Below, in pieces: positions 4,370-50,539 of a stretch of DNA of 62,126 nt. The notes below the pieces were generated by a model. The model was not told the origin of the DNA. It saw only the letters and a list, made by a program, of their open reading frames with translations, and did no database searches. The translations under genes and the position numbers were made by a program. Within the stretch, counting starts at the first letter, position 1, and the number at the start of each line of letters is the position of its first letter. Source of the DNA: a virus (taxonomy: Duplodnaviria > Caudoviricetes); IMG/VR virus record IMGVR_UViG_3300045996_000468, positions 1 to 62,126 of that record; one strand, given 5' to 3'.

Positions 4370-5995
4370 TTGGGGAAAGTTGCGGCGAAGCGCGGGGGCG
4401 CTTCACGATCGACGGCAACGACCAAGGCGCGGACGAACACGTCTGCGCCTTTAGCGCGTCCGACGACAGCCGACATTGCCACAGCACCGCGCGTCAAGTC
4501 GCAGTATATGCGCGGCGATCGGCATTCGGTCTTTCACGGCTGGAACCCCACACTGCGCCTTGAGCGCGACGACGTTCTCGCAAGCTACGTGAAGGCGGCC
4601 GCGCGCGCGATCGACATTGCGCAAAACCAAGGCTTCATAGCCGGCGGCCTTGAACAAGCCGCAGTGAACATGATGGGCACCGGCTTGCGCTGCTCGCCCA
4701 AGCCCGACGCTGCGGCGCTTGGCTGGTCGCAGGATCAAGCCGACAAGTGGGCGAACGACGTTGCTCGCCGCTTCGAAGCTTACGCGGCTTGTCCCGGCGA
4801 ATGCGACGCCGCAGAAACAAGCACGCTGCATCAACTCGCGCGCGGCGGCATTGACACCTTTTTCAGCCATGGTGAGCAATTGGCGCTGTTGCCGCGCTTG
4901 CCCAACATTGGCGGTGCAATGACGACCGTGCGCGTCAAGATGCTGCCGCCGCATTTGCTCGTTCAGGACAACAACGAAGAGCAAGGCTTGCGGCAAGGCG
5001 TGTTCGAAAACGTGTGGGGCGCGCCGGTCGCCTATAAGATGGATTTATCGAACGGCCGCCGCCTGCCCGATATCATTCCGCGCTTCGACGACGCGCGCCG
5101 CTTGCAGGTTTTCCACTCGCACAATGGCAAGATCGGATCGCCGCGCGGGATCACGCCGTTCGCGCCCGCGCTGCAAGTCGTCAAGCGCCTCGATCAGCTT
5201 TCCGACGCGACGCTGTCGGCCGCGCTGATACAAGCGATCTTCGCCGCCACCGTGAAGAGCAAGGCACCGTCCGAAGACTTGCTTCGCGCGTTGCAGGATG
5301 ATGACGAGCAAGGCGTCGCCGGTTCGTCGCTCGCGTCACTCATGGAAATGAAGGGCGAGTATTACGAGAATTCGAACCTTGACGTGGGCAACAACGGCAA
5401 GATCGCGCATCTGTTTCCCGACGAAGAGTTGACGTTTCACGGTTCGCAGACGCCGAACGATAACTATGAAGCCTTCACGAAGATGCTGTTGCGCGAAATC
5501 GCGCGCTGTCTCGGGCTCACGTTCGAAGAGTTGACCGGCGACTTCACCGCCGCGACGTATTCAAGCGTGCGCATGGCAACGTCAGTGATCTGGCCTATCG
5601 TGATGGCGCGCCGCGAAGTCATTCCCGCGCGCCTCTATCAGGCGGTGTACGAAGCTTGGCTCGAAGACATGATCGTGGCGAACGTCATCGCGTTTCCCGG
5701 CGGCGCGTTCGGCTTCTATGCGAACAAGCTTGCGGCGTGCGGTTGCTACTGGCGCGGCCCGGCGAAGCCACAAGCCGACGATCTGAAGGCGGCGAAGGCG
5801 TACCACGAATATAAATCGATGGGCATCATGTCCGACGAACGCATCGCCGCCGAACTCGGCTTCGACATTGAAGACGAGTACGATCAGCGCAAGAAAGAAC
5901 TCGAAATGCGCAAGGCGCGCGGTTTGCCTGAGCATGACACGATGGCCGAACCTGATCCGGTTGGCGATGCGCTTGTCTCACGTGAGGGCGCGTGA
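4370..5995 (+). CDS. Portal protein, lambda family
   Basis: GTGLR, RGITPFAP, LTGDF...TYSSVR, W.GP...D.LK motifs; follows terL. Confidence 0.94.
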   Translation: MGKVAAKRGGASRSTATTKARTNTSAPLARPTTADIATAPRVKSQYMRGDRHSVFHGWNPTLRLERDDVLASYVKAAARAIDIAQNQGFIAGGLEQAAVNMMGTGLRCSPKPDAAALGWSQDQADKWANDVARRFEAYAACPGECDAAETSTLHQLARGGIDTFFSHGEQLALLPRLPNIGGAMTTVRVKMLPPHLLVQDNNEEQGLRQGVFENVWGAPVAYKMDLSNGRRLPDIIPRFDDARRLQVFHSHNGKIGSPRGITPFAPALQVVKRLDQLSDATLSAALIQAIFAATVKSKAPSEDLLRALQDDDEQGVAGSSLASLMEMKGEYYENSNLDVGNNGKIAHLFPDEELTFHGSQTPNDNYEAFTKMLLREIARCLGLTFEELTGDFTAATYSSVRMATSVIWPIVMARREVIPARLYQAVYEAWLEDMIVANVIAFPGGAFGFYANKLAACGCYWRGPAKPQADDLKAAKAYHEYKSMGIMSDERIAAELGFDIEDEYDQRKKELEMRKARGLPEHDTMAEPDPVGDALVSREGA

Positions 5996-7675: not shown

Positions 7676-8368
7676 ATGGTCGCTACTGTTTTCTCTGAGA
7701 CCCTGCACGACGGCGCTTTCATCGTGCAGGAAGGTCCGGGCTTCTACAGCCGGGACAGCCTGACCGTCGCAGCGTCGCAGACGCTTACGCCGGGCGAAGT
7801 CTGCGGCATTGCGCTCACTGCCGCGCTCGCCACCGCTGGCGCAACGGCGTCGGTTGCTGCTGAAGCAACCAACACCGGCAACGGCGTCTTCACGATCGAT
7901 CCGACGAACCCGGTTCTGGCCGATGGCAAGAATGGCGTCTATCGCGTCGTGTGTATCGAAACGAACGCCAACCTCGGCACGTTCGAAGTGTTCGATCCGG
8001 CTGGCGTGTCGATCGGCCGCTACATCGTCGGCGCTGCCGCGTTCTCCAGCCAAATCAAGTTCACGATCGCGGACGGCGCGACGGACTTCGTTGCCGGCGA
8101 CGCGTTCAGCGTCACCGTTGGCGTCGAATGGGGCACCGATCGTCATGCGAAGGCGCTCGACACCGCCGGCACCGATGGTTCGCAGACGGCCGCGTGCATC
8201 GCGTTCGGCTCGACGACGACGGGCGTTGGCGAGACTGCCAAGGCGACGTTCATCACCCGCAACGCTGAAGTGCGCGCTTCCGATCTGACGTGGCCGGGCG
8301 GCATCACCGCCGCGCAAAAGGCTGCGGCGATCGAGCAGCTTCGCGGCGTCGGCATCATCCTGCGCTGA
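7676..8368 (+). CDS. Head decoration protein (gpD/HDPD-like) with internal beta-rich insertion
   Basis: YSRDSLT...GEV.G, DGSQTA, AEV...L.WP, L...GIILR; strong RBS; between protease and capsid genes. Confidence 0.88.
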   Translation: MVATVFSETLHDGAFIVQEGPGFYSRDSLTVAASQTLTPGEVCGIALTAALATAGATASVAAEATNTGNGVFTIDPTNPVLADGKNGVYRVVCIETNANLGTFEVFDPAGVSIGRYIVGAAAFSSQIKFTIADGATDFVAGDAFSVTVGVEWGTDRHAKALDTAGTDGSQTAACIAFGSTTTGVGETAKATFITRNAEVRASDLTWPGGITAAQKAAAIEQLRGVGIILR

Positions 8369-39790: not shown

Positions 39791-40546
39791 CTACAGTGAC
39801 ACGCCGCGACGGCGCAATTCGTGTTGGCAAGTGAAGATCATGTCTTCGTCGTCTTTGAACGTGTCGACGATCCATCGCAGATAGCCGGCATCGATCTGAT
39901 CGAACGTCAAATCTTTCAGCTTAGGATCGTTGCGCGTGCCGCCGATCGGTGTCGCTGCGATCCTGCACCGATAGAGTAATGCAGGCTGCGAGCTAATCTC
40001 GATCATGTCAGCGATCGTCAGCTTCGCGAGCGCGCGAACAAGCACGCTCGCAGTGACGAAAGTGTCCGCGCCCGCGCGGTGCGGCGGATGCGCCCGCGCC
40101 GGATCAAGCTTCAAGCGAAGTGCATACGCCATCGCCCAATTTTTATGGCTGTCCAGTTTCGGCGCGAGACGAAGCGAGACTTTCCACGTGCAAATCCATG
40201 GCGCATTCGTCGGCGCGAGATTGGCAAGGCGTTCTCGATCGAAAGATGCCACGTGCGCAGCGTAGGCTTCGATCGGGTCGACCGTTCCGTCTTTATGCGT
40301 GAATGGCTCGTAAACGCCATGATCGCGGATCACTTCGGAAAGCAACGGCTTCCCCTTCACGTCTTCGTCGACAATATGATGCGTCGCCATTGCGCCGAAC
40401 TCGATCAAGCAACCGGGATCGACCAGCCATGACCGCGTTTGCCCGATCGTCCATTCGCCATCCGTCATCCGAAAAACATCGGTGTGCGCTATCTCGACGA
40501 CTTCGCCGTTCAGCCCGGTTGTTTCAGTGTCAAGAACTCGCAACAT
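39791..40546 (-). CDS. DEDDh 3'-5' exonuclease (ExoX-like)
   Basis: LDTETTG, AH.A.FD, WICT.K, HRA..D motifs; GGGAGG RBS. Confidence 0.92.
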   Translation of the reverse strand: MLRVLDTETTGLNGEVVEIAHTDVFRMTDGEWTIGQTRSWLVDPGCLIEFGAMATHHIVDEDVKGKPLLSEVIRDHGVYEPFTHKDGTVDPIEAYAAHVASFDRERLANLAPTNAPWICTWKVSLRLAPKLDSHKNWAMAYALRLKLDPARAHPPHRAGADTFVTASVLVRALAKLTIADMIEISSQPALLYRCRIAATPIGGTRNDPKLKDLTFDQIDAGYLRWIVDTFKDDEDMIFTCQHELRRRGVSL

Positions 40547-40569
40547 TTCCCCCTCCCTTTTTCTTCCAA

Positions 40570-41059
40570 AAACAAAAAGCCTGCCATGCCATGCCCAACG
40601 CGGCTGCGCCGGTCCCCGACGAGCGACGCCTGCCGTGCTGCGCCATGCCTAACCACGCGCGGAAGTGCCTCGACACGCCCGCCCTGCCATGCCCACACAC
40701 GCCACGCATTGCCCTGCCGATCCGGTCCAAGCCTGCCATGCCTATGCGTGCCACGCCTGCCAAACCGCGCCATGCCAAGCCAAGCCTAAACGTGCCCAAC
40801 CCCGACGGGCCTGCCGTGCCATGATCTGCCGCGCCTCGTCCTGCCGTGCCGTTCCCGTTCACGCCTGCCGGGCGTCGCCGATGCTTGCGCAGCCCTGCGC
40901 ATCCATGCCTTGCCTGCCGCGCCTAACCAACGCCTTGACGAGACAAACCCCGCCGATCCGTGCCTAGCCTGCCAAGCCCGGACATGCCTAGCGCGAACTA
41001 GCCTAGCCATGCCTGCCGAACCTAACCGCGCCTGTCACGCCTAACCGCGCCCGATTGCA
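40570..41059 (-). ncRNA. Putative multi-unit guide RNA precursor with gapped dinucleotide code
   Basis: Co-oriented with and directly downstream of the RAMP-like gene pair; ends in GGCAGGC-UUUUUGUUUUU; the dinucleotides decode to conserved protein motifs. Confidence 0.75.
40579..41053. repeat. Array of 5-nt steps (+ strand RCC-NN; - strand NN-GGY) divided by GCCTGCC/GGCAGGC into 10-11 units
   Basis: Boundaries at 40579, 40628, 40677 (GCCCGCC), 40731, 40755, 40809, 40863, 40912, 40967, 41011 and 41030 (GCCTGTC); spacings 49,49,54,24,54,54,49,55,44,19 (5n+4 except one). By hand count 54 of 86 triplets are exact RCC. Confidence 0.95.
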
Positions 41060-41509
41060 TCACGCGCTTGCGCGTGACGCCGTCTTGTTCGGCCGCTTGT
41101 CTTTCGCTCGATCGACAGCGGACCAAACTTCGTTGAGCGCTTGCACACGTTGAAACTTCGCTTGCACGCGCGATAGTTCTTTCATCGCATCATCAAAAAG
41201 AACTTCCATCAAGTCGCGCGATGCTGCGACTTCATCGATCGCCCGATATCCGCCGCCGTCGACGCGGTCGATCGACAGTGACACCAGCACGGGCGATCCA
41301 TCCGCCTGCACAACATGCAACTGGATCAATCGACGCGCTTGCCAAAGGCGATATTCCTTCGCGGCTTCGGCGTCATCCCAAATGAACATTGAGTTCAGTT
41401 CGCTGCGCTTATTCTTGCGCGCGAAGTCGACGACATCTTCAGCGTGAAGCATGCCGTCTTTGCTGGCGGCTTTCACCGCCAGCAATTCATTTTTCAGCTT
41501 TACCGACAT
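41060..41509 (-). CDS. Accessory protein of the RAMP-like/array locus
   Basis: G.L....VV..A.....L...F.WDD.EAA..YRL.QAR.LI phage family; GGAG RBS; its stop codon abuts the array. Confidence 0.82.
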   Translation of the reverse strand: MSVKLKNELLAVKAASKDGMLHAEDVVDFARKNKRSELNSMFIWDDAEAAKEYRLWQARRLIQLHVVQADGSPVLVSLSIDRVDGGGYRAIDEVAASRDLMEVLFDDAMKELSRVQAKFQRVQALNEVWSAVDRAKDKRPNKTASRASA

Positions 41510-41523
41510 TTCGCTCCGTTCCT

Positions 41524-42240
41524 TTACGATACGAGTTCAAACAATCCCCAACCAAGCCCGGCAGAATTGCGACTGTCTGGCCGCCCCTCACCGATGCCGA
41601 CTTGCAAGCCGACGCGCGCGAACAAGTTCGCAACGTCGCTTGCGGAAAACTGCGCGGCATCCCAACGAATGCGCACGACAGCTTCCCAACCTTCGCGCCA
41701 CATCGGGCGGCACCGAATATCGGTGCTGCCGTTGTCGTTTCGTGCTGGCGCGAAATGCCGTTCCGGATCGCCCTTCGTGATCTTCACAAGTGGCGTCCCG
41801 TCGACGGCATCGAAGCCGTCCGCCTCGACGAACAGCGACAGCTTCGCCAGCGTCATCTTGAAGCCGATCGTTCGGCACGCGGATATCATCGCGTTTCGGA
41901 ATGCCGGCGCGGGAATGCCGCACCATCCTTCGGTCGACTTGTGTTTCGCGCCTTCGAAGACGGCGTCGAAATCTTTCGGATCGCGCTGGCGTCCTTTGCG
42001 CGCCTGCGATCCGGCCATTTGCGTTTCGATCATCGTCTGTTGTGACTTCTGACTGAAAGCATGCTGCACATACGGCGACGTTCCGCGAATGCGGATCGCT
42101 GCGGTTTCGAACTTCGGCGGCGCGATGATCGCCTGTCGTGTGTTCGGATCGCTCGCGATCTTTTTTGCTGCTGTGATTTTCATCGGGACCACTTCAGCGG
42201 TGGCGACTTTCTTTGGCTTAGGCACTTGCGTTTGCTCCAT
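41524..42240 (-). CDS. Cas7/RAMP-fold-like RNA-binding protein (putative guide-RNA effector)
   Basis: N-terminal strand I.I.G.SPY..H, IP..AF.NAM..A helix (compare RAMP IPGSS.KG.LR), C-terminal Gly-rich loop G..VGIGEGRP......G.GWG.F. Confidence 0.75.
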   Translation of the reverse strand: MEQTQVPKPKKVATAEVVPMKITAAKKIASDPNTRQAIIAPPKFETAAIRIRGTSPYVQHAFSQKSQQTMIETQMAGSQARKGRQRDPKDFDAVFEGAKHKSTEGWCGIPAPAFRNAMISACRTIGFKMTLAKLSLFVEADGFDAVDGTPLVKITKGDPERHFAPARNDNGSTDIRCRPMWREGWEAVVRIRWDAAQFSASDVANLFARVGLQVGIGEGRPDSRNSAGLGWGLFELVS

Positions 42241-42287
42241 TTTAGAAAATGCGCTGTTGCGGCCAGCGCGTTGCCGGTTCGGTAGTT

Positions 42288-42554
42288 CTATTGCGGCGTC
42301 CCTCGCTCTTCCTCGATCGCCTGCAATCGATCGACGATCACCCTGCGAAGCGAAGTGACGACGGCGTCCGCGCCCTGCGCTTCGGCAACTTCGATCGCGT
42401 CTTCGAGCCCTTCAATGGTCGCGCGATTGAAAGCGGTCGCGAGAATTTCAAATCGATCGCTATCGGTTAAAGCTTGCGCCATCTGGCGGAAGACGCGGAC
42501 TTTCCACGCCGCGCGATCCTGCACAATGCGTTCGCCTTTCTCACTCAATGCCAT
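42288..42554 (-). CDS. Hypothetical protein
   Basis: AGGAG RBS; helical. Confidence 0.55.
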   Translation of the reverse strand: MALSEKGERIVQDRAAWKVRVFRQMAQALTDSDRFEILATAFNRATIEGLEDAIEVAEAQGADAVVTSLRRVIVDRLQAIEEERGTPQ

Positions 42555-50464: not shown

Positions 50465-50539
50465 GTCCCCGTCTTCTAGCGGTTAGGAAAGCGGCCTTTC
50501 ACGTCGCAAACGCCGGTTCGAACCCGGCCGGGGACGCCA
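50465..50539 (+). tRNA. tRNA-Glu (TTC)
   Basis: Acceptor stem GTCCCCG/CGGGGAC, anticodon loop CT-TTC-AC, T-arm GCCGG-TTCGAAC-CCGGC, encoded CCA. Confidence 0.95.

What the first reader, a model, noticed from the sequence alone, without database searches (positions are those of the whole stretch)
40755..40808. Array unit decodes to xx-MKNYVQPG, the start of DUF2190 capsid-cement genes
Seen: dinucleotides AA GC AT AA AA TA GT CA CC GG give (K/N)-A-(M/I)-(K/N)-(K/N)-Y-V-(Q/H)-P-G. Established, from recall of the family: DUF2190 phage head-cement proteins typically begin MKNYVQPG or MKNFVQ.G. Inference: the guide spans the start codon and about 6 nt upstream of a head gene of a rival phage class. 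This phage uses a gpD-like decoration protein instead, and I recognised no DUF2190 gene in it.
Basis: partly seen in the sequence, partly recalled or inferred. Interest (0 to 1): 0.88.

Follow-up and report, generated by a model that had tools for sequence, protein, structure and literature searches.

The report
Phage VIPR guide targeting rival head-cement gene
One unit of a phage-encoded repeat RNA array is a gapped guide that matches, two bases out of every three, the start of a head-cement gene carried by other phages; the guide system itself (VIPR) was described in 2026 preprints, so this is a well-supported new example and not a new kind of system.

Summary
Window 40762-40808 reads AA GC AT AA AA TA GT CA CC GG, separated by GCC-like triplets and bounded by two GCCTGCC marks.

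The array, with the 238-aa and 149-aa genes upstream on the minus strand, is a VIPR system (Viral Interference Programmable Repeat; bioRxiv 10.64898/2026.04.26.720920). That system has a RAMP-like Vipr protein, GGY/NN pentamer vrRNAs, and a "1-nt skip" code in which the skipped base is usually the codon wobble.

- The exact gapped pattern hits 5 IMG/VR contigs, which are one lineage. Each hit lies 6 nt upstream plus the ATG of a 110-aa ORF starting MKNYVQPG, which is Pfam PF09956 (Phage_cement_2, formerly DUF2190), E 3e-30.
- Two shuffled guides gave 0 hits each.
- In 401 Rhodobacterales genomes there were 21 sites at 2 mismatches or fewer, against 0 for the reversed pattern.
- All 120 of 120 stored IMG/VR sites carrying the 8-codon core start a homologue of that ORF.
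- The phage itself has no PF09956 gene, has a gpD-like gene, and has no self-target.

Novelty: a new member of a known kind. The host, expression of the array and the silencing step are inferred, not shown. This scan noted the system on this same window before (e1-6264207).

The parts
41524..42240 (-). vipr gene (238 aa, P0001): RAMP/Cas7-like guide-binding protein, phrog_4652
   Evidence: A profile of 89 family members hits PDB 36pp_D 'SUSP1 Vipr protein' at E 1.5e-5, over the C-terminal strand and G-loop (GxGxxRP). The AF2 model has pLDDT 92.5. Foldseek gives 49 PDB matches at E <= 1e-3; those listed are chains of type III Csm/Cmr and type VII effector complexes. There is no Pfam family. The match to phrog_4652 is E 1e-10.
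41060..41509 (-). vap-like accessory gene (149 aa, P0002), phrog_15946
   Evidence: A homologue lies on the same strand as vipr in 63 of 75 related IMG/VR loci. It is 29% identical to BobaPhett gp53, which sits next to that phage's vipr homologue. It has no Pfam family and no PDB sequence match. Which of the published vap1-6 it corresponds to could not be tested.
40577..41051 (-). vrRNA array: about 97 steps of GGY-like triplet plus NN, cut by 4-nt GGCA|GGC steps into units of mostly 8-10 pentamers (a 'staggered' architecture)
   Evidence: It is intergenic between minus-strand ORFs 41060-41509 and 39791-40546. It has no Rfam family.
40762..40811 (-). The unit in question: 10 pentamers. Sense-strand NN = AA GC AT AA AA TA GT CA CC GG. 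It is the predicted guide against the start of PF09956 head-cement genes.
40755..40761 (-). Punctuation GGCAGGC (+ strand GCCTGCC) at the 3' side of the unit on the RNA
   Evidence: The same GGCA|GGC 4-nt step punctuates arrays in related loci.
40809..40815 (-). Punctuation GGCAGGC at the 5' side of the unit on the RNA; its GGC is the anchor of the first pentamer
40635..40679 (-). Neighbouring unit. Sense NN = GT GC AT TA AC CG GT TC AC, which decodes to VAIYTRVST, the serine-recombinase catalytic motif.
   Evidence: There are 22 exact IMG/VR matches. All are in frame at ...VAIYTRVST... near the N-terminus of ORFs, in contigs of GC 0.32-0.64.
7691..8356 (+). The phage's own head-decoration gene (gpD-like, PF02924). 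It is not a target.
   Evidence: E 7.2e-23, above the family cut-off. No PF09956 was found in this genome.

Best explanation
Window 40577-42240 (minus strand) is a VIPR system. It comprises a Vipr RAMP-like protein, a conserved accessory protein, and a staggered array of GGY/NN pentamers.

The unit at 40762-40811 is one guide (vrRNA). Vipr subunits are expected to hold the GGY triplets and present the ten NN dinucleotides. [quoted passage not shown] That gene lies in the late structural operon of other temperate phages, mainly of Alphaproteobacteria. Because the unread bases fall on codon third positions, one guide covers many diverged copies of the gene.

Binding is expected to block transcription through the site, in the manner of CRISPRi. 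That would deprive the competitor of cement protein and probably of the connector and tail genes downstream.

Shown here: the anatomy, the protein homology, the conserved linkage of protein and array, the exact and family-wide complementarity at the gene start, and the absence of a self-target.

Inferred from the preprints, which tested a different VIPR type: RNP formation, dsDNA binding and silencing.

Not established: the host of this phage, and expression and processing of the array.
For: System identity:
- A P0001 family profile hits 'SUSP1 Vipr protein' (36pp_D, E 1.5e-5).
- The fold resembles chains of Csm/Cmr/type VII effector complexes.
- 74 of 75 IMG/VR loci encoding a P0001 relative have a strong period-5 window within 1.5 kb of the gene. 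None of the 75 has one further than 1.7 kb away (arrays shown).
- A P0002 homologue is co-oriented in 63 of 75 loci.
- The same trio occurs in Mycobacterium cluster F phages.
- The published description matches: GGY/NN repeats, 1-nt skip, wobble alignment, a >= 80% NN threshold and no self-targets. The 'staggered arrays' with 1-nt overlap are described in the fig. S18 legend.

Target:
- 5 exact 20/20 matches in IMG/VR, all at the same site 6 nt upstream plus ATG of a PF09956 ORF.
- The match is coextensive with the unit.
- 0 hits for each of 2 shuffled guides.
- 21 sites at <= 2 mismatches in 18 of 401 Rhodobacterales genomes, against 0 for the reversed pattern. Of the 21, 19 read ATG-AAR-AAY-TWY-GTN-CAR-CCN-GG.
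- 75 of the 80 closest homologues in genomes score >= 16/20.
- 120 of 120 stored IMG/VR sites with the 8-codon core start an ORF homologous to the target (blastp E <= 1e-5), and score 16-19/20.
- 77 sites at >= 80% in a 534-kb local set, against a mean of 0.1 (max 1) in 100 shuffles.

Self versus non-self:
- No PF09956 in the phage.
- No site within 3 mismatches.
- Best own-genome score is 14/20, equal to the shuffle mean.

Target context: portal, protease-capsid fusion, cement, DUF6441, tail tube, tape measure.

A second unit behaves the same way, with 22 exact hits that are all VAIYTRVST.
Against: - The five exact hits are one lineage: identical over at least 59 nt. A naive expectation for 20 fixed bases in a collection of roughly 1e11 bases is a few tenths of a hit, so the exact match alone is weak. 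The case rests on frame, position, the family-wide signal and the controls.
- 0 exact matches in 596 Gb of genome contigs. The best cultured-genome match is 19/20.
- The set of 80 homologues was retrieved partly with the peptide MKNYVQPG, so the count of 75 of 80 is inflated.
- Other units of the array show nothing in the target prophage or in the 534-kb set. Two 10-step units had 0 exact IMG/VR hits.
- The host is unknown. 0 of 201 sampled Alphaproteobacteria genomes hold a P0001 relative, and the closest cultured relatives are phages recorded on cyanobacteria.
- The experiments in the preprints were done on type II systems with tailed vrRNAs, not on this staggered type.
Confidence: 0.82

Rival explanations
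1. The unit is a real VIPR guide, but it acts on the mRNA. It is antisense to the message and covers the spacer and start codon, so it would block translation initiation of the cement gene and would not silence transcription on DNA.
For: The RNA (minus strand) is complementary to the coding strand, hence to the mRNA. The footprint spans the 6 nt before the ATG plus 8 codons, which is a classic antisense site.
Against: The preprint shows specific dsDNA binding, repression from either strand, and natural targets on both strands. I have no data of my own on this type.
Confidence: 0.1
2. Chance resemblance. The dinucleotides are unconstrained spacers of a protein-binding repeat RNA, and the match to MKNYVQPG is a coincidence picked out by eye.
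For: The five exact hits are one lineage. The naive expectation for 20 fixed bases is not far below one hit.
Against: The match is in frame, is at a start codon, and is coextensive with the unit. There are 0 hits for 2 shuffles, 21 against 0 in 401 genomes, 77 against a mean of 0.1 in local shuffles, and 120 of 120 core sites at the same gene start. A second unit gives 22 of 22 in-frame hits to another conserved motif.
Confidence: 0.02
3. The guide is real, but its natural target is not a competing phage of the same host. It could be a domesticated prophage remnant, a satellite that borrows head genes, or a decoy or regulatory site.
For: The host is unknown. The second preprint describes satellites and decoy sites as VIPR players (abstract). 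IMG/VR classes three of the five target records as proviruses of 28-63% estimated completeness.
Against: The target record carries a full head-to-tail module: portal, protease-capsid fusion, cement, tail tube, tape measure. The same gene order occurs in cultured Rhodobacter and Paracoccus phages.
Confidence: 0.06

Closest known systems
VIPR systems (Viral Interference Programmable Repeat), type II of coliphage SUSP1 and a Pseudomonas fulva prophage (bioRxiv 10.64898/2026.04.26.720920; 10.64898/2026.10.15.759431)
   Same: A small RAMP-like Vipr protein and an adjacent accessory gene. Guides are built of GGY/NN pentamers. The target is read as NN-x-NN with the skipped base on the codon wobble. 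Targets lie in other mobile elements, and there is no self-target.
   Different: P0001 is only distantly related to SUSP1 Vipr (47 aligned residues, E 1.5e-5). The units are 45-50 nt and separated only by a 4-nt GGCA step, with no conserved structured 3' tail. The target here is the start of a late structural (cement) gene, whereas the main texts describe regulators, recombinases and other vipr genes.
'Staggered vrRNA arrays' (fig. S18 legend of the first preprint)
   Same: The legend describes adjacent vrRNAs sharing a 1-nt overlap, so that the end of one marks the start of the next. This fits the GGCA|GGC 4-nt steps here and in most related loci.
   Different: I saw only the legend. The figure, the VIPR type it belongs to and the supplementary tables were not available, so type assignment is open. 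The preprint says experimental confirmation by sRNA-seq covered the ribozyme-interspersed and single-vrRNA forms, not the staggered form.
Class 1 CRISPR-Cas backbone (Cas7 family: Csm3/Cmr4) with crRNA, and CRISPRi
   Same: An RRM-based fold with a glycine-rich loop. A protein filament holds a guide and breaks pairing periodically. The expected outcome is a transcriptional roadblock.
   Different: There are no CRISPR repeats or spacers, no cas1/cas2, and no other cas genes. Pairing is 2 nt per 5-nt guide step, where Cas7 pairs 5 nt of every 6. The system is encoded by a phage.
PF09956 Phage_cement_2 (formerly DUF2190) head-cement proteins - the target, not the system
   Same: The target ORF scores E 3.1e-30 over positions 1-102 of the 103-position model. 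It lies just after the protease-capsid gene, as in Rhodobacter phage RcKemmy and Paracoccus phage Pben1.
   Different: Only the subfamily that starts MKN[YF]VQPG is covered at >= 80%. Other members score 12-13 of 20.

Membership tests
VIPR system | Vipr protein: a minimal RAMP homologue with RRM core, G-loop and thumb | tested here: met
   A profile of 89 homologues hits PDB 36pp_D 'SUSP1 Vipr protein' at E 1.5e-5, aligned over the last strand and the G-loop GxGxxRP. The AF2 model has pLDDT 92.5. The listed Foldseek hits are Csm/Cmr/type VII complex chains, E 1e-5 to 1e-3, TM 0.32-0.53.
VIPR system | vrRNA locus: tandem 5-nt units of a GGY (or related) triplet plus a variable NN, at least 4 units, next to vipr | tested here: met
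   About 97 steps at 40577-41051. 74 of 75 related loci have such an array within 1.5 kb of the gene, and 0 of 75 have one elsewhere in the locus.
VIPR system | An accessory vap gene in the operon | tested here: inconclusive
   A conserved co-oriented 149-aa neighbour is present in 63 of 75 loci. I had no vap1-6 sequences to compare, and there is no Pfam or PDB match.
VIPR system | Natural targets under the 1-nt skip rule at >= 80% NN match, with the skip base on the codon wobble | tested here: met
   Unit 40762: 20/20 at a PF09956 start, plus a family-wide signal. Unit 40635: 22 exact in-frame hits. Two other 10-step units gave 0 exact hits. The remaining units were checked only against the local sets.
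VIPR system | No self-targeting at >= 80% NN match | tested here: met
   The best own-genome scores for 8 units are 70-79%, within the shuffle range. There is no site within 3 mismatches for this unit.
VIPR system | vrRNA is expressed, processed and bound by Vipr; the RNP binds dsDNA and represses transcription | not testable with these tools
   No RNA run is listed for this DNA. The biochemistry is known only from the preprints, for type II.
VIPR type II (SUSP1 / P. fulva clade) | About 100-nt vrRNAs, each with 9-16 repeats followed by an invariant structured 3' tail | tested here: not met
   Units are 45-50 nt and abut through a 4-nt GGCA step. There is no conserved tail between them. I therefore do not file it as type II.
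PF09956 Phage_cement_2 (the target gene) | Score above the Pfam gathering cut-off over the full-length model | tested here: met
   105 bits against a cut-off of 24, E 3.1e-30, model positions 1-102 of 103.

The most novel reading that the evidence does not exclude
This staggered-array VIPR type may work as a broad-spectrum anti-mobilome array. Its guides are tuned to family-wide protein motifs, not to particular rivals. Examples are the cement-protein N-terminus MKNYVQPG (120 of 120 viral sites, locus GC 0.43-0.70) and the serine-recombinase catalytic motif VAIYTRVST (22 of 22 sites, GC 0.32-0.64). In effect it would recognise peptides through DNA. Because this guide sits on the start codon and its upstream spacer, it may act on both the DNA and the mRNA.
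Probability: 0.3. Interest if true: 0.6.

Novelty: new member of a known kind. Interest (0 to 1): 0.38.

Why it matters
This is an independent, blind confirmation that the VIPR 1-nt skip code predicts natural targets outside the two clades studied experimentally, and in the 'staggered' array form for which I saw only a figure legend.

It adds a target class that the main texts of the two preprints do not mention: a late structural gene, hit exactly at its start. The terms 'cement', 'DUF2190' and 'start codon' have 0 occurrences in both. 'Capsid' has 0 occurrences in the first; its 13 occurrences in the second are not about VIPR targets in the 12 passages I saw. The supplements were not seen.

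The finding also gives a concrete 29-bp site and a 50-nt guide for a reporter test. In addition, it shows that Mycobacterium cluster F phages, which are easy to work with, carry the same module.

Tried and rejected
- Rfam: only a tRNA in the window and nothing on the array.
- Megablast of 25 kb against cultured phages: no match.
- Literature search for 'pentanucleotide repeat' plus 'mycobacteriophage': one irrelevant paper, listing only.
- Before finding the preprints I considered three other readings: a TRAP-like protein-binding RNA, two-tier G-quadruplexes, and an R-loop origin. I dropped them once the PDB sequence search named Vipr and the target test succeeded.
- Other units against the target prophages G001/G002 and against 534 kb of related prophage DNA: nothing above the shuffles.
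- Exact IMG/VR search for units 40816 and 40684: 0 hits each.
- Exact search of genome contigs for this unit: 0 hits.
- Host of the phage:
  - Cluster look-up of four close Vipr homologues gave no names.
  - 0 of 201 sampled Alphaproteobacteria genomes had a P0001 relative at E <= 1e-10, which the tool itself calls uninformative.
  - The terminase is closest to Microcystis phage Mae-JY30 (48%) and the Vipr to Cyanophage Cy-LDV1 (62%).
  - The host remains open.
- The DEDDh exonuclease downstream (39791-40546) as a system partner: it is found in 0 of 75 related loci, so I rejected it.
- Promoter/terminator scan of 40300-42400: no minus-strand promoter-like site and nothing useful at the array ends.
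- Expression: no RNA holder is listed. Two soil-metagenome DNA runs hold part of the stretch.
- Complex prediction, the protein-atlas search and the metagenome-contig scan were not used.
- Supplementary files of both preprints (type tables, target lists, figs S16-S22) were not opened. They may already list this clade, its type, or cement-gene targets.

Full report
**The observation.** On the + strand, the stretch 40755-40815 reads GCCTGCC, then AA-ACC-GC-GCC-AT-GCC-AA-GCC-AA-GCC-TA-AAC-GT-GCC-CA-ACC-CC-GAC-GG, then GCC-TGCC. The stretch lies in a 510-nt gap between two minus-strand ORFs, 41060-41509 and 39791-40546. The gap has by far the strongest 5-nt periodicity in the window: identity at lag 5 is 0.45, against about 0.21-0.22 at lags 2, 3 and 7, and the six best 300-nt windows all lie at 40551-40801. 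Read on the minus strand, it is a chain of about 97 steps of a GGC/GGT-like triplet plus two variable bases. The chain is interrupted by 4-nt steps (GGCA|GGC), which cut it into units of mostly 8-10 pentamers. The unit in question is exactly ten pentamers between two such steps, at 40762-40811.

**What the locus is.** The two genes upstream on the minus strand have no Pfam family. They match phrog_4652 (238 aa, P0001) and phrog_15946 (149 aa, P0002). A distant blastn of the array region hit 12 Mycobacterium phage records of genus Cheoctovirus. There the same NN-GCC array lies beside genes that are 31% and 29% identical to P0001 and P0002.

P0001 belongs to a very large unnamed family. There are 6030 proteins at E <= 1e-3 among 6399 candidates in the 90% clusters, and 2147 representatives at 50% identity.

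Of 75 IMG/VR loci that encode a relative, 74 have a strong period-5 window within 1.5 kb of the gene. None has one more than 1.7 kb away. The exception ends about 100 nt after the gene. The arrays show the same GGCNN steps and GGCA punctuation. Some lineages use other anchors: AGC/AGT in L034 and GGA in L016. A P0002 homologue is co-oriented in 63 of 75 loci, while the downstream DEDDh exonuclease is in none.

A profile of 89 family members hits one PDB sequence, 36pp_D 'SUSP1 Vipr protein' (E 1.5e-5), aligned over the last strand and the glycine-rich loop. The AlphaFold model (pLDDT 92.5) resembles chains of type III Csm/Cmr and type VII effector complexes (49 matches at E <= 1e-3).

**What is known.** A search for 'Vipr' and 'phage' found two preprints.

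From the first (10.64898/2026.04.26.720920) I read the abstract, Results, Discussion, methods sections 20 and 27, and figure legends by term search. It describes VIPR systems as follows:
- a Vipr RAMP protein and a vap gene;
- vrRNAs of 9-16 GGY/NN repeats;
- dsDNA recognition in which NN pairs and one target base is skipped, mostly the codon wobble;
- targets in competing phages and satellites;
- no self-targets at >= 80% NN match;
- seven types, including 'staggered arrays' in which adjacent vrRNAs overlap by 1 nt.

From the second (10.64898/2026.10.15.759431) I read the abstract, the outline, passages by term search, and section 17. It shows that a SUSP1 guide reads invariant codon positions of a satellite recombinase. 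It is not type II, because the units here carry no conserved 3' tail.

**The target claim.** All five share one sequence, AAGGCC-ATG-AAG-AAC-TAC-GTT-CAG-CCC-GG. It is preceded by an AAGAGG ribosome site and opens a 110-aa ORF starting MKNYVQPGNTITL.... That ORF scores 105 bits (E 3.1e-30) on PF09956 Phage_cement_2, the former DUF2190. The third dinucleotide lies on the ATG, and every skipped base in the coding part is a codon third position. All ten steps match.

The five contigs are one lineage, so I did not rest on them alone.
- Controls: two shuffled guides gave 0 hits each in the same collection.
- In 401 Rhodobacterales genomes the pattern found 21 sites at <= 2 mismatches in 18 genomes, against 0 for the reversed pattern. 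Of the 21, 19 read ATG-AAR-AAY-TWY-GTN-CAR-CCN-GG. I judged these by sequence only, not by Pfam.
- Among the 80 closest genomic homologues of the target protein, 75 score >= 16/20 at their start. The best are 19/20, for example in a Sphingomonas ursincola record. This set was retrieved partly with the peptide MKNYVQPG and is therefore biased.
In all 120 stored loci the site opens an ORF homologous to the target (blastp E <= 1e-5). Scores were 16-19/20 and locus GC was 0.43-0.70.
- In a 534-kb local set the real guide has 77 sites at >= 80%, against a mean of 0.1 and a maximum of 1 in 100 shuffles.
- Across 79 homologues the read positions of the eight codons agree with the guide in 84-100% of sequences. 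The two upstream steps agree in only 6-82%.

**Limits of the target claim.**
- No exact match exists in genome contigs.
- Cultured phages with annotated cement-like genes mostly escape: RcKemmy 12/20, Pben1 13/20 and LPPA33 13/20. Synechococcus phage Sc-Yong805-1 scores 18/20.
- The motif therefore marks a subfamily, not all of DUF2190.

**Self and non-self.** The phage has no PF09956 match. It has a gpD-like PF02924 gene at 7691-8356. It has no site within 3 mismatches of the pattern. No unit scores above its shuffle range on the phage's own genome.

**Context of the target.** In provirus record G001 the gene order is portal, protease-capsid fusion, cement, DUF6441, then tail tube and tape measure. 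A roadblock at the cement start would sit inside the late operon. The other units do not hit this prophage.

**A second guide.** The unit at 40635-40679 decodes to VAIYTRVST. It has 22 exact IMG/VR matches, all in frame near the N-terminus of ORFs that continue like serine recombinases, in contigs of GC 0.32-0.64. The label 'serine-recombinase catalytic motif' is from my own knowledge; I ran no family search on those ORFs. This parallels the recombinase target reported for SUSP1 and supports the reading of the whole array. Two other 10-step units had no exact hit.

**Mechanism and confidence.** The anatomy, the homology, the linkage of protein and array, and the complementarity are shown here. 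RNP formation, DNA binding and silencing are inferred from the preprints, which tested another type. Three things are not established: expression and processing (no RNA holder listed), the host, and whether the mRNA is also a target. I put 0.82 on the statement that this unit is a VIPR guide whose natural target is the start of PF09956 cement genes of other phages.

**Verdict.** Novelty is limited to a new member and a new target example of a system that is already in print as preprints. The supplements of those preprints, which I could not open, may already cover this clade.

Noticed in passing
window 40635-40679 (minus strand): The neighbouring unit decodes to VAIYTRVST. All 22 exact 1-nt-skip matches in IMG/VR are in frame at that motif near the N-terminus of ORFs that continue like serine recombinases, in contigs of GC 0.32-0.64. 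The name of the motif is from my own knowledge; no family search was run on the hits.
   Followed up: partly
L001 2940-3200 (Mycobacterium phage Florinda) and L002 2990-3235 (BobaPhett): Cluster F (Cheoctovirus) mycobacteriophages carry the same module: a GGCNN array with GGCA punctuation, followed by homologues of Vipr (BobaPhett gp52) and the accessory protein (gp53). It lies downstream of the Cro/Ant early genes. In the records part of the array is annotated as a hypothetical protein (FLORINDA_59, BobaPhett gp51). 'Mycobacter' has 0 occurrences in the main text of the first VIPR preprint.
   Followed up: partly
L034 4640-4940; L016 4630-5300; L055 and L060 about 4850-5300: The anchor triplet differs between lineages: AGC/AGT in L034, GGA in L016, and mixed GGT/GGC in L055 and L060. 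A GCAGG-like punctuation persists in all of them. This fits the 'related consensus' repeats mentioned in the preprint.
   Followed up: no
window 39791-40546 (minus strand): A DEDDh (RNase_T, PF00929) exonuclease starts about 30 nt after the array, but it is absent from all 75 related VIPR loci. It is probably not part of the system.
   Followed up: yes
phage records BK059895.1, MW534375.1, NC_031249.1, OP820472.1: Only 5 cultured-phage records hold a tblastn match to P0001: Cyanophage Cy-LDV1 (62% identity) and 4 Gordonia phage records (about 29%), all annotated as hypothetical protein. The Mycobacterium phage homologues fell below that search's threshold.
   Followed up: no
L003/L004 about 4690-5110, against window 40577-41051: Gene order varies. 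It is vipr-array-vap in L003, L004 and L034; vipr-vap-array in the window; and array-vipr-vap in the mycobacteriophages.
   Followed up: no
L175 253-639 (Synechococcus phage Sc-Yong805-1): The annotated CDS of the cement-like gene starts 48 nt upstream of the Met that aligns with the family's MKNF... start. The annotated start may be too early.
   Followed up: no
window 50465-50539: A tRNA-Glu (anticodon TTC) on the + strand, within a region where the other genes run on the minus strand.
   Followed up: no
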